NCBI GenBank assembly: GCA_030603385.1
Contig: JAUVXW010000028.1
Coordinates: 1 to 61,376, forward strand
Origin: Promethearchaeota archaeon
GTDB taxonomy: Archaea; Asgardarchaeota; Lokiarchaeia; Sigyniarchaeales; SOKP01
Reading direction: 5' to 3'
DNA length: 61,376 nucleotides
Below the pieces are notes generated by a model, which saw only the letters and a program-made list of their open reading frames with translations, did not search any database and was not told where the DNA came from. The position numbers were made by a program, and so were the translations under genes. This document shows positions 38,705 to 61,376 of the stretch, piece after piece; within the stretch, counting starts at the first letter, position 1; each line of letters starts with the position of its first letter.

Positions 38705-39398
38705 ATTTTACTGTCCGAATCTGTAAGCAATCTAACTAATTCTTCAATAAATACACTCTCCTCTTCTTCCATTGGAGAATTTCCCCATCGTCTTTGTGGT
38801 GATGGAAAAAAAAATTGGGAAAAATGGAAACTTCTTTATAAAGGCTCTCAGCGGTAGTGAGAGCGCTCACTAAAGTTAGACAATGATATCGACAAAAAAG
38901 GATTATTATAGAAAGTTAGATAGAATAGTCATGCAAAATAGAGATAAATATTAGATATTTTAATTTTCAGAATTATGTCGAGAATGAGCTAAAATTTTAA
39001 GAGGCCATATTTACATACAAAAAAGTATGTGATAAAATCATTAATTTTATTCAAGTTACTACAAAATTATCTTTTTCTAGAATTAATGAGATAAGAATGA
39101 TATAAAAAGAAAAAACGGTGACAGAAATCGAATAATTATTAATGGGTTAATCTTGCAGTGGAAATCTAATATTTTTGATCTTTTTCTAATGAATCTGATT
39201 TTAAAATATCTTGATAAAAATCAAATTTATTAAATGCTTCTTTAACATAGAAATAATATTTTCTTAGAAATATCAAATCCTTATCAAATCGATATATTGT
39301 TGATTTACTAGAATTTTTATATTTCTCTTTCCAATAATTAAATAAAAATATTAAGAATTTAGATCATTTATTATTAATAAAAAATACCCAATATTGGG

Positions 39399-40700
39399 AT
39401 GAATATGGAATACATTAAGAATATCTCTGACGAAATTGATAAAATCGGATTTAAGGCATATGGTAAAATCATAGAAATAGAATTTGTAGATGGAGTTATA
39501 CATAGGTATGAAAATGTTCAAAAGAAAATTTTTGATGATTTCAGGAACGCTGATTCACAAAAAGATTATTATGTTAATCACATCCAAAACAGCAATCTTG
39601 ATTATGATACTATTAAAGAGGGAAATAGATCCGATATTGAGGTATTGAAAGATCGACAACGTAATCTAGTAACTCAATTTGTGGATTATAACTTGAGAGC
39701 ATTGGCAGAATTGTTAGAAGAAAAAACTATTGATCTTCAACCTCAATATCAGCGAAGATATCGTTGGAATGATGAAAGACAATCGAAATTAATAGAATCA
39801 TTTATAATGAATGTTCCAGTTCCTCCAATATTTTTAAATGAAGATGAATTTGGAAAATATTCTGTTATAGATGGTAAACAACGATTAAATACTATTCAAA
39901 GATTTCTTACAAGTGAATTAGAACTAGTTGGTCTAGAAGTATATAGAGATTTTAATGGAAAAACTTTTTCTGATCTACCATTAATATATCAAAATTATAT
40001 AAAAACTCGAGCTGTTTTGAGGGCAATTATAATACTCAGCGAATCTGATGAGGATATTAAATACAAAGTTTTTCAACGTCTAAATACTGGAGGTGTAAGC
40101 TTAAACGCTCAGGAGATACGGAATAGTGCTTATCCTGGAGATTTAAATGATTTGATTTTGACATTGTCTGAGAATTCAACATTTCACAAATTATTAGGAG
40201 TAGATGATATAAATGAATCAAAAATTTATCAAGAAATGAAGGATGTAGAATATGTACTCAGATTTTTCACTTTTTTTGAGAATCCAAACTATTTTTCAGG
40301 AGATATTGCTTGGAAAATGAGTGATTTCATTAGAAAAAATCAAAGGATGGATAGAAGTAAAATTATAAAATTTGAAAAGAAATTTCTATCTACAATTAAT
40401 TTTATTTATAGATTATTTGGTGAATATGCTTTTAAAAGATGGTGGGAAACTAAGGGTGAATGGAAGAAAAAAATTACAACGCCATTGTTTGATGCTGTAA
40501 TATTCGCATGTGTAGACCGTGATGAAAGTCTTTCAATACCGAATGATTTTGATAAGGATGATTTTATCATAGAATATAAAAAACTTTTCTCAGATAAAGC
40601 TTTTGATGATTCAATTACTTATCACACAGGTACTTCCCCTGCCTTTAACACACGGAAGGATAAGGTCTATAAATTAATAACTGTTTCCTTAGAAAGGTAA
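39399..40700 (+). CDS. KTSC-domain + DUF262 (GmrS/ParB-like) fusion protein
   Basis: N-terminal IGF...IEIEFVDGVIHRYENV...FDDFRNADSQKDYYVNHI is KTSC-like; PQYQRRYRW, LIESFIMNVPVPPIF, VIDGKQRL, FQRLNTGG, QEIRN are DUF262 motifs. Confidence 0.85.
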   Translation: MNMEYIKNISDEIDKIGFKAYGKIIEIEFVDGVIHRYENVQKKIFDDFRNADSQKDYYVNHIQNSNLDYDTIKEGNRSDIEVLKDRQRNLVTQFVDYNLRALAELLEEKTIDLQPQYQRRYRWNDERQSKLIESFIMNVPVPPIFLNEDEFGKYSVIDGKQRLNTIQRFLTSELELVGLEVYRDFNGKTFSDLPLIYQNYIKTRAVLRAIIILSESDEDIKYKVFQRLNTGGVSLNAQEIRNSAYPGDLNDLILTLSENSTFHKLLGVDDINESKIYQEMKDVEYVLRFFTFFENPNYFSGDIAWKMSDFIRKNQRMDRSKIIKFEKKFLSTINFIYRLFGEYAFKRWWETKGEWKKKITTPLFDAVIFACVDRDESLSIPNDFDKDDFIIEYKKLFSDKAFDDSITYHTGTSPAFNTRKDKVYKLITVSLER

Positions 40701-40707
40701 AGACTCA

Positions 40708-41403
40708 ATGATAACTTCAAGTGCCTATGATATGTTTCTTAAATCCTTAGAAATTGCCAGAGGATTAATTCAATTAGATACGTATAGCGTACCACCTAAA
40801 CCAGAAGATAAGAAATATGTTTATGGTTTACGAGGGGGTTCTGTAATATTGATTGTTGCATCATTTGAAGAATTTTTAAATAGTTTACCCGATACCCATT
40901 TAGATGTCATAAAAAGACACATCAGAAATATTGATTTTTCAAAATTACCTGGTAAATTTATAATAACAAATGTTTCTAGGACATTATTTGAATTATCAAA
41001 GAATAAAGATATTGGAAAAATACCAGATGTAAAAAAAACTTGTAGATCTATTATTAATGATGAGATAAATACTTCAGTTTTCAAATTACAAGGTTTTAAT
41101 CCTAGACCAAAGCAGATAAATAATCTTTTTAAGGTAATTGGATTTGAAAATATTTTTGAACAAATAACAGAAAGATTTCAAAAAAGATGGCATAAAAGAA
41201 TCAGTACATATCTTATTATGGATAAATTAAACGAGATAATTGAAAGACGGAATAGGGTTGCTCATAATGCATCTATGACATCTCATATAACTAAAAACGA
41301 TTTAAATGAGGCAATTGATTTTCTAAGGATTTTAGCTCGGTTATTAGATATGACATATAAAAAACGAATAAATTATATCTGTATATCAGCAAAAATCACG
41401 TAA
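40708..41403 (+). CDS. HEPN domain protein (RiboL-PSP/MAE_28990-like), putative RNase effector
   Basis: LIVASFEEFL N-terminal helix and RRNRVAH (Rx4H) motif; 7 nt downstream of the DUF262 gene. Confidence 0.85.
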   Translation: MITSSAYDMFLKSLEIARGLIQLDTYSVPPKPEDKKYVYGLRGGSVILIVASFEEFLNSLPDTHLDVIKRHIRNIDFSKLPGKFIITNVSRTLFELSKNKDIGKIPDVKKTCRSIINDEINTSVFKLQGFNPRPKQINNLFKVIGFENIFEQITERFQKRWHKRISTYLIMDKLNEIIERRNRVAHNASMTSHITKNDLNEAIDFLRILARLLDMTYKKRINYICISAKIT

Positions 41404-41513: not shown

Positions 41514-42185
41514 TTATAGAAATCTGATTTTTTCCAGGTAATAGTCAAAATCTATTCCTTTATTGAGCGAATCATCATATTCCATTAATTTTTTGAGTTT
41601 TAAATGAGAATATTTTGTATGGTATAGAACTCTTAACAGAAATACCGGGAGTATTCCAATATAATAGCATTTAAGATAAAATAATTCTTTTTCATATCCA
41701 AGTAATCTACAGGATATAACTTCATGTAAATTTAAGGCTTCTCTAATCTCATTTTCAGTTAAATCCCTAACAAGTAATCCCATATTTTTATCCAATTCTT
41801 TTTTTGAAATGTTAGGGTTTCGAGAAGCAATATAACTTCTAAATTGTTTTCTATCCTCTTGATTCAAATATTTCATAACAGCAGCAATAACTTTTTCAAA
41901 ATATTTTTCTTCATTAAGTAAAAATGCTCTTATGTTTAAGGCCATATCAGGAGCTATATTAAAATCATTTTTATTCCTAACTCTACAAGAAATTGTAGTG
42001 GACCTACTATGCCAAAAATGTCTTTTTCTTTTATTGATAATATAATATTCTGAATCATCTTTGTCAACAATGTTGTTAACAACTTCCAGGATTCTTTTAC
42101 TCATTTTTCTCAACATTTGGAAATATTGTAAACCTATTATGGAATATAAATCAATGAAAATATATAAATAATTATTATTAATCAA
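41514..42185 (-). CDS. Hypothetical protein (start probably at an internal Met)
   Basis: 223-codon ORF with no recognised motif. Confidence 0.6.
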   Translation of the reverse strand: MINNNYLYIFIDLYSIIGLQYFQMLRKMSKRILEVVNNIVDKDDSEYYIINKRKRHFWHSRSTTISCRVRNKNDFNIAPDMALNIRAFLLNEEKYFEKVIAAVMKYLNQEDRKQFRSYIASRNPNISKKELDKNMGLLVRDLTENEIREALNLHEVISCRLLGYEKELFYLKCYYIGILPVFLLRVLYHTKYSHLKLKKLMEYDDSLNKGIDFDYYLEKIRFL

Positions 42186-42930
42186 TTAATTTAATCCATG
42201 TTTACAATATTTCAATGCGAAATCTTGAAGTTAAGATGCTTTCTCAAAATATTCCGCCGGAAAAAGTGAAATTTCACCATAGTGATTTATTGAATTATCC
42301 TATTAATGGGATATTTCAAAAAATGTTCGAAAATTAGAACTTTTCTAAATTTTGGAAAAGCGAAAGATCTTTAAAGTTAATGAATTAAAAATTGTTAAAA
42401 ATTTTTAACTCGAGAAATTGTGCAAGAATTTGCATTGTTTGAAAATTTGAAGAATTTTTCGAATTTAGAAATCTGAAAAATTTTTTACTTTCGAAAATAA
42501 TTCAGAGATTATTGAAAGCAAATTTGCGATAAATTAAGTTACCTTAAGATTGCATTATTGCACTTTTAAGGTTGAAAGTTAAATAATTGAACTTTTTGAA
42601 AAAGCTCATAGTTGACTTTTTGAAATTTATTAAATCTTTTTTTAATCAGTATAACCACATTCTCTTCTTATTTTCATAATTTCTTCTTTATTTCTTTCCT
42701 TAAACTCTATATAATATTCATTTTCATTTTTAGAGAAAAATAGACATTCTTCGAAAGCTAAACGTGTGAAAAAGCGACTGATTTTTTCTTTTAAAACTTC
42801 AAGACCAGGACTTATTAATCTTGCTTTCCAGAATTTTTCTTTATATTTTTTATTTATAATATTTATAAATTATTTTCGATTTTTAATACTTATGATATGA
42901 CATGATGAGTTTAGATGATTAAGTGAAAAA

Positions 42931-43773: not shown

Positions 43774-44673
43774 TTAATGATCTAAATATTTTTTATTTTC
43801 TTCTATATAATATTTAAAAAACCATTGAATAAATGGGAATGCATAATCTTTTTTATCAGCTTTTTCTAAAGCTCTATAATATTGATCCCTAAATTTTGCA
43901 TCTATATCAATCAAAGGATAATTATTCTTATTTAAAATATAGGTTATTAAAAAACGTGCCACACGCCCATTCCCATCTCCAAATGGATGTATAGCAACAA
44001 ACCGATAATGCATTACAGAAGCAACAAATACAGGATGTAAAATATCCTTTTTATCATTATACCATTCAAATAGATCTTTTAAAAGCATTTCAATTTCAAT
44101 TTTAGACATAGGAGGTTCATAATTACTTCCTTCTATAAAAACAGGATAATTCCTAATAACTCCAGCGATATTATGATCAGTTATTTCAAATAATTCTCTA
44201 TGCCATTTACATACTAAATCCATTGATAATTCTTCAATAGTAGTAACTATTTTTTCATAAATGTTCATATGAGCTTTTGTTTCAATAACATCATTAAGCG
44301 GTTTATTATTTGGTGTAATGTTATTATTTATCACTTTTTCTGTTTCACGTAAAGTTAACGTTGATCCTTCAATTTTACTTGAATGATGAGTAAATCGAAT
44401 ACCAAAACTTCTTAGGTTTTTCGCTTTGATTGATGAAGGCATTGAATTAAAAGAATCTTGATATTTTTTAGTTATCTTTTCTATAATTGGAATCCATCTG
44501 TCTTTAACTACCTCATAAGAAAAATCTTCCCATAATTGAACTAAATCATCATAAGGAGGTATCTCTACCCCAACATACTTCTCTTTTTTAAAAAATTTCT
44601 TATCCTTTCGATAAGAATAGGATAAATAATTATATTCTCTTCCATTAACTTTATGTTTTATTATTGTTGCCAT
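43774..44673 (-). CDS. Fic family protein (AMPylase) with internal inhibitory helix
   Basis: HPFGDGNGRVAR catalytic motif; SSKIEG matches (S/T)xxxE(G/N); basic beta-rich N-terminal extension. Confidence 0.92.
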   Translation of the reverse strand: MATIIKHKVNGREYNYLSYSYRKDKKFFKKEKYVGVEIPPYDDLVQLWEDFSYEVVKDRWIPIIEKITKKYQDSFNSMPSSIKAKNLRSFGIRFTHHSSKIEGSTLTLRETEKVINNNITPNNKPLNDVIETKAHMNIYEKIVTTIEELSMDLVCKWHRELFEITDHNIAGVIRNYPVFIEGSNYEPPMSKIEIEMLLKDLFEWYNDKKDILHPVFVASVMHYRFVAIHPFGDGNGRVARFLITYILNKNNYPLIDIDAKFRDQYYRALEKADKKDYAFPFIQWFFKYYIEENKKYLDH

Positions 44674-44763
44674 ATGATCTTATTATCACCACAAATATAT
44701 ATAATTTTTGCTTTTTATATAAAATGTGGAGATAATTTTTTCTATTTTTTCTTAGTAAATATA

Positions 44764-44913
44764 CTAAGATTTCTTTTCTTTCACAACAAAATAAATAAAA
44801 CCCTTAATGTCTTTAGTACCAATTACTTCAAAACCAATTTTATCAAGTTTTTCTTTTGCTGCTAAAAATTCTTTAGCAAATTTCATTTCAGAATCCATTT
44901 CTAAAGACATCAT
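44764..44913 (-). CDS. Small hypothetical protein (49 aa, not in the ORF track)
   Basis: Manual translation MMSLEMDSEMKFAKEFLAAKEKLDKIGFEVIGTKDIKGFIYFVVKEKKS*; TATA-like tttaaata upstream on the minus strand. Confidence 0.5.
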   Translation of the reverse strand: MMSLEMDSEMKFAKEFLAAKEKLDKIGFEVIGTKDIKGFIYFVVKEKKS

Positions 44914-45152
44914 TATTTAAAATAAATTCTAATCAACTATTTAAATGTATTGGTAAAAATGCCCAAAAACTAGTGAAAAAAGCTATATTTTAATCAATTT
45001 TTTAAGGATTAGGATAATAATCATTATCTAAATTATCATCATCAAATTATAATTTAGTAATTAATAATTTATTATACTCTTTGACAATATAAAGCTTGTA
45101 TTAATAATTTAGTTTAAAAAGAAAAAAGATATCATTAATATTGGTGACTAAA

Positions 45153-45686
45153 ATGGCAAAAAAACCGAGTCAAGAACCAAGATTAAAACCAGTATTAAAA
45201 AGATACATATCGAGAATTGGAGAACTAGGAAAAGAAATAAAAGTTCCTAAGGTCGAGTACGGATATATATTTCATTATCCTAAAGGAACTATTACTCAAA
45301 AAAGACAAAAAAAGTTTTTAGGAAGAAGTTTTCAAGCATTTAAGCCAAAAAGCGAGAATACAATCGTTATCAACCATAAAACAGAAATTTCTCCTGAACA
45401 TGCTAAATCGTTGGCAAGTAATCCAAAATTGAAAGCAGAGGTTTATTCTGATATAATAAAAGTATTTTTAATAAAAAATGTAGAATATGTAGTAAAACGG
45501 CAAGAAAATGCTTTTTTTCTCTCAGTACAGATCTTTCTTGAAAATGAAGGTAAAATTTCTATGAACCAATTTTATAAAGCAGTTCGTAATTTATTTTCAG
45601 CAGATCTTTATTCAGTTATAATTATCCAAGAAAAATGTTCAGGAAAAGTAAAAGGGAAAGATGTTGATTCTCCATATCACATTTAA
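45153..45686 (+). CDS. Hypothetical protein, possibly DUF2299-like
   Basis: ATG 5 nt after GGTGA; alpha/beta pattern ending ISMNQFYKAVRNLF recalls DUF2299/YbjN-like folds (by eye). Confidence 0.55.
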   Translation: MAKKPSQEPRLKPVLKRYISRIGELGKEIKVPKVEYGYIFHYPKGTITQKRQKKFLGRSFQAFKPKSENTIVINHKTEISPEHAKSLASNPKLKAEVYSDIIKVFLIKNVEYVVKRQENAFFLSVQIFLENEGKISMNQFYKAVRNLFSADLYSVIIIQEKCSGKVKGKDVDSPYHI

Positions 45687-45714: not shown

Positions 45715-46308
45715 TCACTCACTTCCTTTTATTTTTTTAAATAATATTTTTTTATCTATTCTTCTCATTCTATCAAATAGGTCTTTCTTACTAATTTTAA
45801 GATATTTCATCGTAGTTTCAAGATCTTTATGTCTTAGAATTCCAGATACATCTTCCAATGCCATTCCATTGTTTAATAGGTGTGTTGCTCGTGATCTCCG
45901 GAAACTATGGGTAGTTATAGGTTTTTTAATTTCTGTTAGTTCTACACATTTTTTCACAATTTTATAGGCCATAGGATAACTAAGTTGAGAAGATCGATTG
46001 GATTGAAATACAAAATCTTGAGATTTAATCTTTTTATCCTTACAAAAGCGTTCAATTTCTCCATAAATATGTGGTGGTACTGGTTGAGTTTCCCAATTCC
46101 TCTTGTCTGTTTTTTGATCTCTCAGTAATAAATAAGTGTAATCATCTTCATTTCTATAATCTTCATATTTGCTATTTAAAGCTTCTGAAACTCGTAAAGC
46201 ACCATAATAACAGATTCTCATTAATAAAAGATCCCTAGAGGAGATTCCAGGAGTTTGCCATAATATTTCGATTTCTTTCTCTGAAAGCCATTCTTTTGAA
46301 TATTTCAT
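45715..46308 (-). CDS. Tyrosine recombinase/integrase, catalytic domain only (197 aa)
   Basis: ALRVSE (R), QKTDK (K), HSFRRS (HxxR), LRHKD (H), TTMKY (Y). Confidence 0.93.
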   Translation of the reverse strand: MKYSKEWLSEKEIEILWQTPGISSRDLLLMRICYYGALRVSEALNSKYEDYRNEDDYTYLLLRDQKTDKRNWETQPVPPHIYGEIERFCKDKKIKSQDFVFQSNRSSQLSYPMAYKIVKKCVELTEIKKPITTHSFRRSRATHLLNNGMALEDVSGILRHKDLETTMKYLKISKKDLFDRMRRIDKKILFKKIKGSE

Positions 46309-46496
46309 TTTTCTTTTGTTTTAATTAATTTTTTTCCATGTGTGAATTCTGAAATTGTATTTATCATATTTATTAAATAGTAGTTAATATCTGTTCTGAC
46401 CCCATTAATAGCTCCTAGTAAATCTTTAGGATCCAAGTTTTCTTCAATTGAAATATCTAAACCTTCAAAATTACCTTTTACTTCTATTTTAGTCAT
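46305..46496 (-). CDS. Small hypothetical protein translationally coupled to the recombinase
   Basis: ATGA overlap with the recombinase start. Confidence 0.55.
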   Translation of the reverse strand: MTKIEVKGNFEGLDISIEENLDPKDLLGAINGVRTDINYYLINMINTISEFTHGKKLIKTKEK

Positions 46497-46973
46497 TTTT
46501 TACACTTTTATTTATTTTTATAAATTAAAGATTTTATAGGAAAATCTCTACTTATGGATTGGATGATTATTTTTATTTATAAAGACACTTATCTTTTGAT
46601 TAACAAAAGTAAAGATTTTACCGTATTTTCTTTACTTAAAAAACAGAATAATTCATTTATAAAATATGATCATTATGCATATTTTCACATTAATAAAAAA
46701 AAAATAGAGAAAGAATCCTGGCTAATATTTTATTCATGGAGGAATAAAAGAGGTTCATTCTCTAAGGTTATTATTATTTTTCTAATATTTATTTATGCAT
46801 GAAAGGAATATTTTTTGGATAATAAATATAATAAATGTATTTTTACAGAAATAATTAGTTTTAAATAACCCAAAAAAGGCAAATTTCAAACAATTTTTTT
46901 AAAGTTGATATTTTCATTGTTAACACATCAAAAATGATCTTATTGTGTTATTTGCATTGTTTTTATGTAGTTA

Positions 46974-47086
46974 TTCTCAATTTTATTAAAACGCTTATTT
47001 TTTCCACAAAAACCTTTTAATATGTGCAATTCTTTCTCAACTTTATCAAAACGCTTATTTTTTCCACAAAAACCTTTTAATATGTG
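46974..47086 (+). repeat. Two 53-bp direct repeats at 60-bp period (2 mismatches) in the divergent control region
   Basis: ttctcaaYtttatYaaaacgcttattttttccacaaaaaccttttaatatgtg at 46974-47026 and 47034-47086. Confidence 0.9.
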
Positions 47087-47273
47087 TTAAATTCAATAAT
47101 TTTGGAAAAGAAAAAGAAAGAGTGATAAATCTTATCAATAATAACATTTATAAATAAATCTGATCTAATTTTAAGCAATAAATGTTTTTATGCAAAAAAT
47201 TGCACAAAAATCTTTAAAATTTAACAAAAATAAAAATTTTTAATTAAAAATTAAATAAAAAAGGTATGAAAAT

Positions 47274-48383
47274 ATGGCAGAAAAGCAAGGCCGTGTTTCA
47301 AGTAAGAGAAGCCTGGGGGAAAAATACAGCGATCTCGATAAAAAATTCAAGGTTCTCACCGTTTTCGGTATTATTTTCTGTATTGCTGGTTTACCATTGA
47401 TAATCTGGGGAGGTATTTGGGCATATAACACTTATGCTATTGGAGGCGAAACACCAGAAGAAACACCAACTACAAAACTATATTCTACTTTTGCATTAAT
47501 TTCGAATGTTGATGGGGAAATTGTTTCTCCTTTTGTTGAGATGGATATTTGGGGGCAAAAAGATAGCGCAGATTTTAGTCTGGGCATGGAAGATATTACT
47601 GATCTAACAAACTTTGAAAGAATAGAAACAAATACAGATGCTGATGATATAGAAATTGATTTAAGAGATGGCGACTATTATTGGGCAGAGATTACAGGAA
47701 ATAGTTTATATCAAAACACATTCTATTTACTCTATGGGGGTGCGAATCATGATTATATCAGATATGGTCATGATCCAAGTTCCGCTGTTCCTTTTAATAT
47801 ATTCGTTAAAAATACTGGTGCTGCAATAACCATTCCTGGTCATCAGACCAACGGAAATTTTACTGGTGTATTGGATGTTCCAATCAATAGTAGAACTCCT
47901 GCGAATTGTCATTATGGCGATAATTGGGCACTTAGCACAACTGAATTTGCTGCATTGACACAAAGGCAACAAGAAGTCTATTGGGATGAAGGAAATTGGT
48001 GTGATCAATTTCCAACTTATGATCCTACACTTGATATCGTAAATGAATATGATCGTGCTTGGGAAAAAATTACAAATGCACCTGCATTAAAATTTGTAAT
48101 GAATGATACAATCAGCGTGGTTGATGGTGAAGCGACTCAAATCAATTGTACAATTGGTCGGGGGTATTCTATTGATTTTTTGATTTCGGGTGTTAATCTC
48201 TATATGGCATGGTATGAAGGAATTGATTTCGATCCTTTTCCTTATACATTTGACTTCGAGATGTGGTTCGGTGTTAATATTAGTATAACAACCGTTTATA
48301 GCGGTAGAGCAAATGTTTTCGGAGCATTCTCATCTTTAGCTTGGGACACGACATATAATGAAATCGGCTTAGTTGCTGCATAA
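47274..48383 (+). CDS. Type II membrane protein (basic N-tail, one TM, acidic beta-rich ectodomain); putative virion/envelope protein
   Basis: TM VLTVFGIIFCIAGLPLIIWGGIWAY; sequons NFT, NDT, NCT, NIS; first gene of the module. Confidence 0.65.
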   Translation: MAEKQGRVSSKRSLGEKYSDLDKKFKVLTVFGIIFCIAGLPLIIWGGIWAYNTYAIGGETPEETPTTKLYSTFALISNVDGEIVSPFVEMDIWGQKDSADFSLGMEDITDLTNFERIETNTDADDIEIDLRDGDYYWAEITGNSLYQNTFYLLYGGANHDYIRYGHDPSSAVPFNIFVKNTGAAITIPGHQTNGNFTGVLDVPINSRTPANCHYGDNWALSTTEFAALTQRQQEVYWDEGNWCDQFPTYDPTLDIVNEYDRAWEKITNAPALKFVMNDTISVVDGEATQINCTIGRGYSIDFLISGVNLYMAWYEGIDFDPFPYTFDFEMWFGVNISITTVYSGRANVFGAFSSLAWDTTYNEIGLVAA

Positions 48384-48406
48384 TTTGCCTTATTAAAGGT
48401 GATATT

Positions 48407-49834
48407 ATGAAAATATCAAATAAATTTTTTTTTCTTTTTTTTCTTTCTATATTTATTCTAATACCAATTAGTTTATTTTCTCCATTTGTAAGTGCTGGAG
48501 AAGTTGCTGATCCGATGATTTCTACGGATATTCTATCTGTTGATTTGGGTACATTTCAAGACAATACACTTGGAGATGGAAGTGGAAAATTTGACTATAT
48601 TACTGGCGGATTTGATCTTATTTCTTTTGAGAATTTGGGTCAGTATGGACAACCAAACCCTGAAACGAATGAAGTTATATATAGGGCCAAAGTGAAATGG
48701 GGATTTGAAGTAAATGCGTGGACATCAACTTTATTTAGGAATATATATCCATTTATAAATATTGAAAATATAGAAGAAGTTGCTTTTTTATCGATACAGT
48801 ATTGGAAACATATTCCTTGTATTTGGCCTAGATTAATTGAAGGTCAAACAAGTACTCCTCAATATAAAATAAAATTCTATGATATAGATTATGGGACAAG
48901 TAAGACAGAATATGTTTATAATTATGCGGTTGAGGAAGTAGATGTACCTGGAAGTTATTTACAACATAATTATCATGGTTATATTCCAGTTACTGTTGGG
49001 ATTGATCCGGGATTAGCATATTCTGGTGAAATTAAGGTTGCTGGGCAAACATTTACAGTTCCCACATTAACATCTGATATTCTTTATACTAAAATAGCGG
49101 ATATGAGAGGAGGGGAATGTGGAAGTTATGAGGATAGATATACGGATCAAGGAATAGATAGTGCATCTGTGACTGTTGATGTGCCAGAAGGAACCTGGAG
49201 TTCTACGACAACAAAACTTACTGATTGGTTTAATGATGAAGATGTTGGATCAATAACAAAAAAATCAAATGATACATTAACGGTACAACAATCTGTATAT
49301 GATTTATCATATAAAGGAGATACAAAACATGCTTCTGGAACCAGTAATGAATTTATGTTTAATTTACCAATTCATATACAACCAGAAGTGACGAAGTTAC
49401 GAAATTATTTCAATTTAAAACGCGGTGGATTTCATTGGTATACATGTTGCGGAAAATATAGGAAAAGTCCTTGGACTGTAGATGAAAGGATAACAAGAGA
49501 TGTATCTGTTAGTGTTCAAAATGTCTTCGTACATTACGATTTTGAAATGGAAACAGAGTTATTTATGACTTGCCAATTTGAAGGGGAGATTAGTGAATCA
49601 TTTCTTGAAGATCCAAACTTAATAATTTCAGATATGATCTGGGATGCATCAATTTGGGGAGATGAAACCGTACATATTAAACTCCCAAAAACAACCAAAT
49701 GGTGGGAGGAAATTATAATCTGGATACTTATTATTGCTGTTGTCGGAATTAGTTTTTATATTATATTAAAATATATAAAAAGTAAAAGCAGAAGACCACA
49801 TTATATCGTAATCAATAAACAGGGGGCAAAATGA
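48407..49834 (+). CDS. Type I membrane protein (signal peptide, beta-rich ectodomain, C-terminal TM, basic tail); candidate spike
   Basis: Signal ending ...PFVSA; TM IIIWILIIAVVGISFYIIL; tail KYIKSKSRRP; GGTGA RBS. Confidence 0.7.
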   Translation: MKISNKFFFLFFLSIFILIPISLFSPFVSAGEVADPMISTDILSVDLGTFQDNTLGDGSGKFDYITGGFDLISFENLGQYGQPNPETNEVIYRAKVKWGFEVNAWTSTLFRNIYPFINIENIEEVAFLSIQYWKHIPCIWPRLIEGQTSTPQYKIKFYDIDYGTSKTEYVYNYAVEEVDVPGSYLQHNYHGYIPVTVGIDPGLAYSGEIKVAGQTFTVPTLTSDILYTKIADMRGGECGSYEDRYTDQGIDSASVTVDVPEGTWSSTTTKLTDWFNDEDVGSITKKSNDTLTVQQSVYDLSYKGDTKHASGTSNEFMFNLPIHIQPEVTKLRNYFNLKRGGFHWYTCCGKYRKSPWTVDERITRDVSVSVQNVFVHYDFEMETELFMTCQFEGEISESFLEDPNLIISDMIWDASIWGDETVHIKLPKTTKWWEEIIIWILIIAVVGISFYIILKYIKSKSRRPHYIVINKQGAK

Positions 49835-51042
49835 TGAGAAAGGGGATAATAATCATTGTTTTACTTTTGATTTCCGCATGTATAATTCCTTTTATCATTT
49901 TTAGTTTACAATTTTTTGCGCTTGACCCGGGTAATGGTGGGGGAATTCTTCCTGATTATATACCAGATCCAGAGTATGATATAGGAATTCCTGTGCTTGA
50001 TGAAATTACTCCTGAAGTTGATTATGATGGAAGTATCAGATTATATTGGGATATAGTATCACCATATACAATATCACATTATCGTGTTAAGAGAATATTA
50101 GGTTCTGGTGTATGGGGGTTTATTGCTCATAATGTAGAAAATAAATATTATATTGATCTTAATCCACAAGAAGGAGTATATCAATATAAGGTTCAAGCAG
50201 TTGCTATAATTGATGGATCAAGTTATTATTCTGAGTATTCAAATGTTCAATCAGTTCAGGTGGTATCTCAAACTACTAATATTCCTGTACTTAAAGCAAT
50301 TGACGGTCCTTGTACTGATGGAACTGTTGAATTAGATTGGAATGCAGTTGAAGGTTATCTTGGTGGAACTATTATGGGATATCATATTTATAGATATTCC
50401 GCTTCAGAAGGATGGAAAGAAATTGATGGTGTTTCTTTTGGAATAACTGAATATACTGATGATATTGAAGTAAATGGAGAGTATCAATATTACATTAAAT
50501 CTATAACTCTTATCCATTTAGATATAGTAGAAAGTGACCCTTCAAATATTCAAACTGTAGTTGTTGATATACATGTAGAACCACCACCACCACCACCACC
50601 AGAACTTCTTCCTTCAAATCCATCAATAATAATAAATTCTGGAGTTGAAACAACCGATTCATTTGAAGTCACACTTTCACTTTATTGTGATCGTGCTGAT
50701 GAGATGCAAATTCAGATATCTATTGGAGTCTGGACTGACTGGGTTGATTATACAACGACATATATTATAACATTACTTGGAGTTGCAGATCCTGATTATC
50801 CTGATTTTAGAGTTAGTGTTATATTTAGAAATGATAATGGAACAACTGAAGATGCGGGGTATGGTGATATTTATGATGATATAACATATGAGGAACCAAC
50901 ACAGGAAGAAGAGGAAGAAGAGGAAGAACCATCTCCAGAAGAAGATTACACATTAATATATGTTTTACTTGGAGTTCTTGTAGGATTAATTGGAATAGGT
51001 GTTTTTCTAAAATATAGAAAGCAAATAATAAAATCTAAATAA
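49831..51042 (+). CDS. Membrane protein with two fibronectin type III-like domains, poly-Pro hinge, Ig-like domain, acidic linker and C-terminal TM
   Basis: GSIRLYW...YQYKVQAV...SEYSN and GTVELDW...YHIYR...YQYYIKS...SDPSN; (cca)7 at 50581-50601; poly-Glu. Confidence 0.8.
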   Translation: MMRKGIIIIVLLLISACIIPFIIFSLQFFALDPGNGGGILPDYIPDPEYDIGIPVLDEITPEVDYDGSIRLYWDIVSPYTISHYRVKRILGSGVWGFIAHNVENKYYIDLNPQEGVYQYKVQAVAIIDGSSYYSEYSNVQSVQVVSQTTNIPVLKAIDGPCTDGTVELDWNAVEGYLGGTIMGYHIYRYSASEGWKEIDGVSFGITEYTDDIEVNGEYQYYIKSITLIHLDIVESDPSNIQTVVVDIHVEPPPPPPPELLPSNPSIIINSGVETTDSFEVTLSLYCDRADEMQIQISIGVWTDWVDYTTTYIITLLGVADPDYPDFRVSVIFRNDNGTTEDAGYGDIYDDITYEEPTQEEEEEEEEPSPEEDYTLIYVLLGVLVGLIGIGVFLKYRKQIIKSK

Positions 51043-60300: not shown

Positions 60301-61376
60301 TAACTAACCTAAATAGCACCCTATTAAACCAGATGGTATCTCTTGGTGTGGACATAACAAACATTAATGCAACGATATATAATCAGATTTTGAGTTTACA
60401 AGTGGATTTAACAAACATTAATAGTTCGATCACCTCTCTCCTAACTAATATTGGATTGAATATCTTAAATCTTGAATCTGATATAAATACTTTATATCTA
60501 TTTACAAACACATCAATTTGGAATCTAAATAGTGCGATGAATAGCTCTTTTATTTATTTGGAAAATAATATTTATTCTATTAACCAGAGCATTTCTACAT
60601 TGGTTATTGGAATAGATAACAGCATTTCGCTTGTAAATGCTACTATTACGTCAATGTTTACCGAAATGAATCAACAGTTTATAGTGGTTCAATCAACATT
60701 AAATTATTCGTTTGCGTTTTTAAATCAATCAATAATACAATTGGCAAATGATATAACAGAAAACCACGTTATATTATATAATCTAATAGAACAGAGAGCA
60801 AATGAGATTGATAGTAGCCTAATTGATGTTCAAACTCTCATTAATCTTGTAAATAATACTGTTGCTGATGAAAGTCTTGTTATCCAAACTCTTGTTAATC
60901 TTATTGGTGCAAACATAACAAATAATCATATAATCATCAACAATCTACTTAATTTAATCGATAATAATATTACTAATAATAATATACAACTCGTTTCTAT
61001 TTTGGAAGTAATTGGAAACAATATTACTACGAACCATTTTGTAATCCAAACTCTTATAGATGTAATAGGTAATAACATAACATATAATCATATAGAATTA
61101 CTTACGAATTTGAATCTTATAAACACTACAATATCTCAAAATCAAATCGAACTCATAAACAGATTATTATTTATCAACAATACGATAAATGATATGATGT
61201 TTGAACTCACCAATCAACTATTATTTTTGAATGGTACTATTTATAACGCTGTCTTAAATTTGAGTACCTCTATTGAGTTTGGAGTAGATATGGTTCTTGG
61301 AAACATAACGATTACTTATCAACAGAATGAATTTTTAACTGAATTATACAAGGAAACTATGTTTTCCCAATTGCTT
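54375..61376 (+). CDS. Giant adhesin/spike: signal/TM, two LamG-like domains, jelly-roll-like domains, 5-repeat beta-propeller and long 18-residue-repeat coiled-coil stalk; in-frame TAA at 60054-60056; runs off the window
   Basis: NTWYHIKIVFD...FYIDG and DAWIHIKVSFD...VWIDG; WDGTHLWVVG repeats; manual translation shows the same frame open for 440 codons after the TAA with the same repeat. Confidence 0.8.
57660..58275 (+). repeat. Five 129-nt (43-aa) tandem beta-propeller blade repeats
   Basis: tgggatgga at 57699, 57828, 57957, 58086 and 58215 (exact 129-nt period). Confidence 0.9.
59870..61170 (+). repeat. 18-residue (54-nt) coiled-coil-like repeats of two types
   Basis: NINSSIxNQIxxLGVDIT type (about 59870-60430) and LIxxIGNNITxNHxxIxT type (about 60840-61170). 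Confidence 0.8.

What the first reader, a model, noticed from the sequence alone, without database searches (positions are those of the whole stretch)
39399..41403. KTSC-DUF262 fusion plus HEPN RNase: candidate antiviral system variant
Seen: an N-terminal KTSC-like domain fused to a DUF262 domain with intact QR/DGxQR/FxRLN motifs, tightly followed by an Rx4H HEPN gene. Established: DUF262 (GmrS/ParB-like) and HEPN domains recur in defence systems, and from memory a DUF262 + RiboL-PSP-HEPN pair resembles PD-T4-2. KTSC domains bind single-stranded nucleic acid. Inference: KTSC adds a nucleic-acid sensor that gates an abortive-infection RNase. I do not know of this fusion being described, especially in Asgard archaea.
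Basis: partly seen in the sequence, partly recalled or inferred. Interest (0 to 1): 0.72.

Follow-up and report, generated by a model that had tools for sequence, protein, structure and literature searches.

The report
KTSC-tagged DUF262–HEPN defence gene pair
An Asgard archaeon carries, on a strain-specific island beside a mobile element, a two-gene module (ParB-like DUF262 NTPase plus HEPN RNase) of a widespread type related to the E. coli anti-phage system PD-T4-2. Its one unusual feature is a small acidic KTSC domain fused to the front of the NTPase.

Summary
Gene A (39399-40700, probable start 39405) has four parts: KTSC, a linker, ParB-DUF262 with intact QRxxxW, DGKQR and FQRLN motifs, and a helical ParBDB-like domain. 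Gene B (40708-41403) starts 7 nt later and is a RiboL-PSP-type HEPN with an invariant R181-x4-H186.

The core pair is not new. DUF262-only homologues of A had a B-type HEPN gene directly downstream in 42 of 42 close metagenomic loci. The pairing was predicted in 2013, and PD-T4-2, described as having the same two domain families, was validated in E. coli in 2022.

The new part is the KTSC fusion. It has a single origin and forms one small clade of about 19 protein clusters. It was found in 3 of 400 Asgard genomes, all in one family.

The domain is strongly acidic in all 18 fusion proteins (pI 4.2-4.8). The same fold forms the tip of the HerA C-terminal arm in a solved SIR2-HerA antiphage complex. 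Its role (trigger sensor, autoinhibitor or docking arm) is therefore open.

This scan reached the same conclusion earlier on another Asgard genome (e1-5519671).

Verdict: a new variant of a known kind, of moderate interest.

The parts
39399..40700 (+). Gene A: KTSC-DUF262-ParBDB protein (433 aa ORF; probable start at 39405, 431 aa)
   Evidence: ORF. Pfam KTSC plus GmrSD_N. PADLOC NsnA 5.5e-75 over residues 88-428, and PD-T4-2_A 7e-39. Start inferred from homologues.
39405..39617 (+). KTSC domain (residues 3-73), strongly acidic
   Evidence: Pfam 43.9 bits. PDB 7x8c by sequence, E 6e-5. Fold matches: Z 12.5 to 4rgi, 12.2 to 7x8c, 10.6 to HerA residues 612-696 of 8wld. Net charge -5 here and -5 to -12 across the clade.
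39618..39671 (+). Flexible linker (residues 74-91)
   Evidence: pLDDT below 50 at residues 78-87. This is the most variable segment of the protein: dN/dS is 0.85-2.4 in the three pairs where it could be computed.
39672..40103 (+). ParB-like DUF262 NTPase-type domain (residues 92-235) with QRxxxW, DGKQR and FQRLN motifs
   Evidence: Pfam. Key motif residues invariant in 57 sequences. Fold matches to SspE (Z 7.3), ParB (Z 6.4) and sulfiredoxin.
40104..40697 (+). Helical C-terminal domain (residues 236-433), ParBDB-like
   Evidence: The NsnA profile is matched to position 380 of 385. BrxU residues 1-420 align to model residues 92-430, Z 9.2. Domain definition from PMC12065111.
40708..41403 (+). 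Gene B: RiboL-PSP-type HEPN protein (231 aa), the predicted RNase effector
   Evidence: Pfam PF18735, 5.6e-21. AF2 pLDDT 90.2, all-helical. HEPN structures head the fold search.
41248..41265 (+). HEPN catalytic motif R181-N-R-V-A-H186
   Evidence: Read directly from the translation. R181 and H186 are invariant in alignment A5. G40-L-R-G-G44 is also invariant there.
38721..39398 (.). Context: upstream strain-specific spacer. Conservation with same-genus genomes stops at about 38720. Bases 38754-39293 are repeated at the start of own-genome contig C51.
41514..46796 (.). Context, not part of the pair: a block holding a 223-aa ORF, a Fic gene and a short tyrosine recombinase. Three of its segments (41514-42253, 44750-45044, 45718-46796) are shared with element copies on own-genome contigs C41 and C15.

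Best explanation
This is a two-gene, defence-type sensor-effector module carried on a strain-specific island beside an integrated mobile element. Protein A is a ParB-like DUF262 NTPase with a helical DNA-binding-type (ParBDB-like) domain. It is the sensor or switch. Protein B is a HEPN RNase and is the effector. By analogy with the studied DUF262 proteins (GmrSD, BrxU, SspE), A would recognise a feature of invading DNA or an infection cue and use NTP binding or hydrolysis to change conformation. That change would release or activate B, whose RNA cleavage stops viral multiplication, possibly at the cost of the cell. The KTSC domain is a clade-specific addition to the N-terminus of A, joined by a flexible linker. 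It most likely changes when the switch fires. It could do so by binding a protein or other trigger, or by holding A in an inactive or oligomeric state, and is less likely to act as a simple nucleic-acid binder. Shown here by computation: the domain identities, the intact motifs, the strict A-B gene coupling, the single origin of the fusion, and the location on a strain-specific island. Inferred: antiviral function, the direction of control (A over B), RNase activity, and any role for KTSC.
For: Domains and motifs. Coupling: a B-type HEPN ORF lies directly downstream of A in 4 of 4 fusion loci and 42 of 42 close DUF262-only loci that have at least 600 nt of downstream sequence. The same holds in bacterial (Puia) and other Asgard genomes. 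Defence-type setting: similar pairs sit between conserved genes of P2-like E. coli and Klebsiella phages. Conservation with 53 same-genus genomes stops at window position about 38720, and none of the 53 holds A. Own-genome element repeats, a Fic gene (PADLOC PDC-S04 9e-38, SoFic 1.6e-33) and a recombinase lie beside the pair. Literature: 'Ribo L-PSP-HEPN ... operon with ParB' (PMC3710099). PD-T4-2 protects E. coli against T4 in its native strain (PMC9519451), and DUF262 and PF18735 HEPN are assigned to it (PMC10952713, bioRxiv 10.1101/2024.10.26.620412). DUF262 acts as an NTPase sensor in SspE and GmrSD, and clade-specific N-terminal add-on domains occur on NsnA (PMC12065111). KTSC fusion: it forms one clade with SH-aLRT 99. 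dN/dS is 0.31-0.60 in four pairs, close to the rest of A, so the domain is maintained. The same fold occurs in HerA of a solved SIR2-HerA antiphage complex.
Against: There is no experiment on any member of this family branch. PADLOC models for PD-T4-2_B, NsnB and NsnC do not match B or any of its homologues, so current catalogues would not call this a system. No DNA methylase or other recognised defence system lies next to the pair, apart from the Fic gene. A toxin-antitoxin or addiction role for the neighbouring element fits the same anatomy. The dN/dS values are rough: NG86 on DNA of about 27% G+C, with low dS.
Confidence: 0.62

Rival explanations
1. One reading: KTSC is a single-stranded nucleic-acid sensor that detects viral ssDNA or RNA and thereby gates the HEPN RNase.
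For: Comparative-genomics papers label KTSC as RNA-binding (PMC7824862) or DNA-binding (PMC9503650). N-terminal add-on domains on NsnA-type proteins are mostly DNA-binding folds (PMC12065111). The KTSC domain sits in that same position.
Against: Those labels are predictions, and I found no binding experiment in the library. The domain is acidic in all 18 fusion proteins, with net charge -5 to -12 and pI 4.2-4.8. KTSC is otherwise combined with TPR, ankyrin and Sel1 repeats and with further KTSC copies, which are protein-binding scaffolds.
Confidence: 0.15
2. KTSC is a structural docking or oligomerisation module, or an acidic autoinhibitory lid on the basic DNA-binding part of A. On this reading it is not a sensor of anything foreign.
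For: The same fold (Z 10.6, rmsd 2.2 A over 69 residues) forms residues 612-696 of HerA in the Paenibacillus SIR2-HerA complex. Those residues lie within the 'C-terminal arm domain', which as a whole contacts the neighbouring subunit (PMC11472057). The domain is acidic while the rest of A is basic in most clade members, with pI about 9. It is tethered by a flexible linker. Acidic sigma-70 region-1.1-like domains are listed among the NsnA N-terminal domains (PMC12065111).
Against: The contacts described for the HerA arm are made mainly by its helices, not explicitly by the KTSC-like tip. No interface was predicted or tested here. In the window's own protein, the rest of A is not basic (pI 6.0).
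Confidence: 0.3
3. The pair is a toxin-antitoxin-like addiction or competition module that serves the neighbouring mobile element. B would be the toxin and A its neutraliser. It would not be host antiviral immunity.
For: It lies between own-genome element repeats, next to a recombinase and a Fic gene. HEPN toxins with protein partners are well known (5yep and 7ae2 among the fold matches). One Asgard genome keeps an intact B beside a truncated A (L013).
Against: An intact B surviving beside a truncated A argues against A being an essential antidote. A keeps a complete NTPase motif set, which is typical of sensors. Relatives of the pair occur in many contexts without element genes. Defence and addiction roles are also not mutually exclusive.
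Confidence: 0.12
4. It is a decaying, non-functional remnant.
For: Relatives do decay: there is a truncated A in G177 and a DUF262 homologue with two in-frame TAA stops in G181.
Against: Both frames are open. All catalytic and nucleotide-binding motifs are intact. dN/dS is below 1 for every part except the linker. The 7-nt coupling is conserved in L006 and L007.
Confidence: 0.03

Closest known systems
PD-T4-2 (E. coli ECOR65; Vassallo et al. 2022, PMC9519451)
   Same: It is a two-gene system, reported to consist of a DUF262 protein and a PF18735-type HEPN protein (PMC10952713). It has no DUF1524 nuclease and no ATPase. A matches the PADLOC PD-T4-2_A model at 7e-39.
   Different: B and all its homologues fail to match the PADLOC PD-T4-2_B model. 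A scores much better against NsnA. PD-T4-2 has no KTSC domain. The host here is an Asgard archaeon, and nothing has been tested.
Menshen NsnA, especially 'Type II' Menshen with N-terminal add-on sensor domains (Li et al. 2025, PMC12065111)
   Same: A has the ParB-DUF262 plus ParBDB core (NsnA model 5.5e-75, profile positions 42-380 of 385) and a clade-specific extra N-terminal domain on a linker. This is the published pattern of independent recruitment of N-terminal domains.
   Different: There is no NsnB ABC-ATPase and no NsnC inPIN-nuclease. The partner is a HEPN RNase. KTSC is not among the 33 N-terminal domain families named in that paper's main text. That survey covered bacteria.
'Ribo L-PSP-HEPN in operon with ParB' (Anantharaman et al. 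2013, PMC3710099)
   Same: It is the same HEPN family (PF18735) and the same operon partner class. The association was predicted to be conflict- or defence-related.
   Different: It was listed for Bacteria only, without the KTSC fusion.
HerA of the Paenibacillus SIR2-HerA antiphage complex (PDB 8wiv, 8wld; PMC11472057)
   Same: It carries a KTSC-fold module (residues 612-696) attached to a defence NTPase. The fold match is Z 10.6, and there is a weak sequence match at E 0.057.
   Different: The module is C-terminal, not N-terminal. The NTPase (HerA) and effector (SIR2) are unrelated to A and B. The authors do not name the module KTSC.
GmrSD / BrxU / SspE (type IV restriction-like DUF262-DUF1524 enzymes)
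   Same: They share the DUF262 NTPase and the following helical domain (BrxU Z 9.2, SspE Z 7.3). In these enzymes DUF262 acts as a sensor that activates a nuclease.
   Different: They have a fused DUF1524 DNase. Here the effector is a separate HEPN RNase.

Membership tests
PD-T4-2 | Two adjacent co-oriented genes: a DUF262 protein followed by a HEPN protein | tested here: met
   The gap is 7 nt.
PD-T4-2 | First protein matches the PD-T4-2_A profile | tested here: met
   PADLOC PDLC04027, E 7.2e-39, profile positions 43-287 of 363. The match is partial and weaker than the match to NsnA.
PD-T4-2 | Second protein matches the PD-T4-2_B profile | tested here: not met
   There was no PD-T4-2_B hit for B at E up to 1. 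Five homologues gave none at E up to 10, and seven more distant partners gave none at E up to 0.01. B does belong to PF18735, the Pfam family that the literature reports for PD-T4-2.
PD-T4-2 | Protection against phage that depends on both genes | not testable with these tools
   This needs an experiment.
Menshen (NsnABC) | NsnA: ParB-DUF262 plus ParBDB | tested here: met
   PADLOC NsnA, 5.5e-75, residues 88-428 against profile positions 42-380 of 385.
Menshen (NsnABC) | NsnB ABC-ATPase gene directly downstream | tested here: not met
   The downstream gene is a 231-aa HEPN. No NsnB hit was found in the neighbours.
Menshen (NsnABC) | NsnC (inPIN plus nuclease) as third gene | tested here: not met
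   The next ORF (41514-42185) is on the opposite strand and has no family match.
GmrSD/BrxU/SspE | C-terminal DUF1524 (HNH-type) nuclease fused to DUF262 | tested here: not met
   Pfam reports only KTSC and GmrSD_N above their cut-offs. The C-terminal half is the helical middle domain only.
KTSC (PF13619) | Profile match above the curated cut-off | tested here: met
   43.9 bits against a cut-off of 25. 47.3 bits in the own-genome scan, where it is the only KTSC found.
KTSC (PF13619) | KTSC fold | tested here: met
   4rgi Z 12.5, rmsd 1.7 A over 71 of 71 residues. 7x8c Z 12.2. Foldseek target-normalised TM-score 0.88.
KTSC (PF13619) | Nucleic-acid binding (predicted for the family) | not testable with these tools
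   Only predictions exist in the literature. The acidic composition argues against it.
HEPN, RiboL-PSP family (PF18735) | Profile match above the cut-off, and the R-x4-6-H motif | tested here: met
   75.8 bits against a cut-off of 28.4. R181 and H186 are invariant.
HEPN, RiboL-PSP family (PF18735) | HEPN helical fold | tested here: met
   HEPN proteins make up most of the top 13 rows of the search of representative PDB chains (Z 8.1-10.2). Z values in this range for helical proteins need the sequence evidence as support. Foldseek alone found nothing.
HEPN, RiboL-PSP family (PF18735) | Operon with a ParB-family gene | tested here: met
   and PMC3710099.

The most novel reading that the evidence does not exclude
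KTSC is a reusable 'trigger or latch' module of prokaryotic immune NTPases. It is attached to HerA in SIR2-HerA and to DUF262 here. In this Asgard clade it would be an acidic latch that masks the DNA-binding part of A until a basic viral protein or another infection cue pulls it away. That would be a protein-sensing mode not yet described for DUF262 systems, and it would occur in the archaeal lineage closest to eukaryotes.
Probability: 0.15. Interest if true: 0.6.

Novelty: new variant of a known kind. Interest (0 to 1): 0.38.

Why it matters
DUF262-HEPN pairs are very common. One system with the same domain pair works in E. coli, yet how they work is unknown, and the PADLOC models tried here did not recognise the HEPN partner of any pair tested. 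A natural variant with an extra, well-folded, separable N-terminal domain gives a handle on how the switch is controlled, by comparing proteins with and without KTSC. The same fold on an unrelated defence NTPase (HerA) suggests that KTSC may be a shared accessory module of immune systems. That would give a first functional context to a domain family that has structures but no known function. It also adds a documented, horizontally mobile defence-type module to the thinly described immune repertoire of Asgard archaea. It does not bear on eukaryote origins.

Tried and rejected
I took gene contexts from the search for related loci and the genome search instead.
2. Complex prediction on A plus B, with alignments, gave no verdict (score 0.00). 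This is not evidence either way.
3. hhalign of the B alignment against the HEPN partner in E. coli phage P2_4B2 gave no significant match (probability 0.4%). The HEPN partners are too divergent for this link, although both match Pfam HEPN families.
4. I looked for fused A-B or longer B-containing proteins, which would be Rosetta-stone evidence. None was found. The tool itself rates this as weak evidence.
5. B against plasmids by tblastn gave no match.
6. A profile of B against PDB sequences gave nothing significant. Foldseek on the B model also gave nothing. Only the search of representative PDB chains that does not rely on Foldseek recovered HEPN folds.
7. The ESM Atlas gave no usable hit for the KTSC part.
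8. No att-like direct repeats were found around 38.6-47.6 kb, no tRNA in the window, and no Rfam match in 36-48 kb. The exact limits of the island or element are therefore not defined.
9. The sigma-70 promoter and terminator scan was uninformative for an archaeon.
11. The Menshen paper has no supplements held as text. I could not check whether KTSC appears in its tables.
12. I rejected the idea that the pair is Menshen, because there is no NsnB or NsnC. I also rejected a GmrSD-type enzyme, because there is no DUF1524.
Full report
**1. The observation**

ORF A (39399-40700, +, 433 aa) and ORF B (40708-41403, +, 231 aa) are real open frames. They are separated by 7 nt.

Pfam finds KTSC in A at residues 10-64 (E 2e-11, 43.9 bits, cut-off 25). 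It also finds GmrSD_N/DUF262 at residues 102-245 (E 7e-29). In B it finds HEPN_RiboL-PSP (E 5.6e-21).

An AlphaFold2 model of A, built on 57 homologues, has mean pLDDT 84.9. It has a low-confidence linker at residues 78-87. Residues 2-73 superpose on the two KTSC crystal structures: 4rgi at Z 12.5 and rmsd 1.7 A over 71 residues, and 7x8c at Z 12.2. Residues 92-430 align with BrxU residues 1-420 (Z 9.2), and the DUF262 core aligns with SspE and ParB proteins.

The three DUF262 motifs are QRRYRW (118-123), DGKQR (158-162) and FQRLN (225-229). Their key residues are invariant across the 57 sequences.

In B, R181 and H186 (RNRVAH) are invariant in 14 homologues, as is a GLRGG motif at residues 40-44. 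The B model (pLDDT 90.2) finds mostly HEPN proteins at the top of a search of 48,161 representative PDB chains.

Homologues and the called gene begin at the second Met of the ORF (residue 3), so the start is probably 39405.

**2. Host**

The two closest genomic relatives are titled 'Promethearchaeota archaeon' MAGs. The window's genome is placed in a large genus of the same phylum.

**3. The core pair is a widespread, tightly coupled module**

The best homologues of A fall into two groups. About 19 clusters are KTSC-DUF262 fusions at 50-100% identity. Beyond them lie thousands of roughly 372-aa DUF262-only proteins from Bacteria and some Archaea, at about 50% identity over the C-terminal 80% of A.

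I checked what lies downstream in 80 metagenomic loci.
- All 4 fusion loci with at least 600 nt of downstream sequence have a B-type HEPN ORF adjacent.
- All 42 close DUF262-only loci (E below 1e-90) with that much room have one too.
- In the more distant strata the partner is more divergent or sometimes absent.

The same holds for a Bacteroidota genome (Puia, L008) and for other Asgard genomes (L011, L012).

Similar pairs (DUF262 plus a RiboL-PSP or MAE_28990 HEPN) lie between conserved genes of P2-like phages of E. coli and Klebsiella.

**4. Relation to named systems**

PADLOC scores A best against Menshen NsnA (5.5e-75, nearly the whole profile including the C-terminal domain). PD-T4-2_A comes second (7e-39).

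Menshen needs an NsnB ATPase and an NsnC effector (PMC12065111). Neither is here, so this is not Menshen.

PD-T4-2 is a two-gene system, validated in its native E. coli strain (PMC9519451). DUF262 and PF18735 HEPN are assigned to it (PMC10952713; bioRxiv 10.1101/2024.10.26.620412).

The architecture and the Pfam families therefore agree with PD-T4-2. However, neither B nor any tested homologue matches the PADLOC PD-T4-2_B model.

The operon association 'Ribo L-PSP-HEPN ... operon with ParB' was already listed in 2013 (PMC3710099).

So the pair works like PD-T4-2 and belongs to the same broad class. It comes from sequence branches that the PADLOC models do not recognise.

**5. The KTSC fusion**

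On a tree of the DUF262-ParBDB part, the 18 fusion proteins form one clade (SH-aLRT 99). In this sample they sit beside a group that includes Bacteroidota proteins. The other Asgard DUF262-only proteins branch elsewhere (quick tree, midpoint root only).

Among 400 genomes of the phylum, the fusion occurs in 3, in three genera of one family. None of the other 53 genomes of the window's own genus has it.

An exhaustive phmmer search with residues 1-97 against 1.84 billion representatives found 41 KTSC proteins. Only one of them is a DUF262 fusion, and it belongs to this same clade.

One member (KKN41746.1, from a marine sediment metagenome, locus tag LCGC14_0720150) is already public and is named only 'hypothetical' or 'DUF262 domain-containing'.

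KTSC is the only domain of its family in this genome.

dN/dS for the KTSC part is 0.31-0.60 in four pairs, similar to the rest of A. B evolves faster, at 0.63-0.85 (rough values).

**6. What KTSC might do**

I found no experiment showing nucleic-acid binding by KTSC. Two comparative-genomics papers call it RNA-binding or DNA-binding by prediction (PMC7824862, PMC9503650).

Three observations bear on its role.
- The KTSC part is acidic in all 18 fusion proteins (net -5 to -12, pI 4.2-4.8). The rest of A is basic in most of them.
- Other KTSC proteins found with this query are stand-alone, tandem, or fused to TPR, ankyrin plus Mrr_N, Sel1 or Fic-like_C modules.
- The same fold (Z 10.6, rmsd 2.2 A over 69 residues; weak sequence match, E 0.057) forms residues 612-696 of HerA in the solved Paenibacillus SIR2-HerA antiphage complex. 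There it lies within the 'C-terminal arm domain', which as a whole contacts the neighbouring subunit (PMC11472057).

PMC9503650 also notes HerA systems coupled to KTSC genes.

These points favour a protein-contact, latch or trigger-binding role over plain ssDNA or ssRNA binding. Nothing here decides between those roles.

The general idea that N-terminal add-on domains tune sensing in NsnA-type proteins is published (PMC12065111). KTSC is not named in that paper's main text.

**7. Genomic setting**

DNA conservation with same-genus genomes covers window 30000 to about 38720, the end of a U32 peptidase gene. Among the listed matches, none from another genome lies further right.

Bases 38754-39293 recur at the start of own-genome contig C51. 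Three other segments (41514-42253, 44750-45044 and 45718-46796) recur on contigs C41 and C15.

That block holds a Fic gene (PADLOC PDC-S04 and SoFic) and a short tyrosine recombinase. Earlier notes of this scan describe 45715-61376 as an integrated capsid-less element.

In the C41 copy, the slot that corresponds to A/B holds a different four-gene operon with a ParB_N protein.

The pair is therefore variable cargo at or beside a mobile element. This is a typical place for defence genes, but I found no att sites.

**8. Decay in relatives**

One Asgard genome keeps an intact B next to an A that lacks its first 232 residues (L013). Another has a DUF262 homologue with two in-frame stops (L014).

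**9. Verdict**

The module is a PD-T4-2-like / NsnA-like DUF262-HEPN pair. The KTSC fusion is real, monophyletic and rare. Its proposed role as an ssNA sensor rests on an unproven premise and fits the sequence poorly.

The same fusion was examined earlier in this scan on another Asgard genome, with the same outcome (e1-5519671).

It is a new variant of a known kind, of moderate interest.

Noticed in passing
window 43774-44673 (-): Fic/DOC-family protein (Pfam 1.3e-18) that matches the PADLOC candidate defence families PDC-S04 (9e-38) and SoFic (1.6e-33). It lies 2.4 kb downstream of the pair, inside the low-GC block (about 25% G+C).
   Followed up: partly
window 41514-42253, 44750-45044, 45718-46796; L105 (G000:C41) and L107 (G000:C15): Three segments of the block to the right of the pair recur at 88-95% identity on two other contigs of the same genome. 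They cover a 223-aa ORF of unknown family, a 300-nt spacer and the short recombinase. This indicates a family of related mobile elements with different cargo.
   Followed up: partly
L105:1824-5203 (+) and L105:6595-7398 (+): In the C41 element copy, the slot that corresponds to the A/B pair holds a four-gene operon with a ParB_N-domain protein (3e-13). A PAPS-reductase-like gene lies further inside. This may be another ParB-based conflict module in the same hotspot.
   Followed up: partly
window 38754-39293; L106 (G000:C51:1-2076): The spacer upstream of gene A is repeated (96-97% identity) at the very start of contig C51, where an extra 1.6 kb is inserted. It may be an element end or the cause of an assembly break.
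   Followed up: no
L013 (G177:C10:534463-538056): A same-family Asgard genome keeps an intact HEPN partner (about 51% identity to B) beside a DUF262 gene reduced to its C-terminal 199 residues. The effector has outlived its partner.
   Followed up: partly
L014 (G181:C25:1-3552): A DUF262 homologue (about 34% identity) is interrupted by two in-frame TAA codons. No B-type gene was detected in the 900 nt downstream. It is probably a pseudogene.
   Followed up: no
L097 (Escherichia virus P2_4B2, gp44/gp43) and L098 (Klebsiella phage ST16-OXA48phi5.4, gp38/gp39): P2-like phages carry DUF262 plus HEPN pairs annotated as hypothetical. The DUF262 proteins match NsnA and PD-T4-2_A, but the HEPN partners match no PADLOC model. 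Such pairs would go uncalled by that catalogue.
   Followed up: partly
window 45141-45686 (+): A 181-aa ORF with a sub-threshold match to DUF2299 (E 2.7e-4, 21.1 bits against a cut-off of 22.8). It lies between the Fic gene and the recombinase.
   Followed up: no
P0130 (783 aa): A protein that combines two N-terminal KTSC domains, ankyrin repeats and a C-terminal Mrr_N domain. This is another KTSC architecture that looks conflict-related.
   Followed up: no
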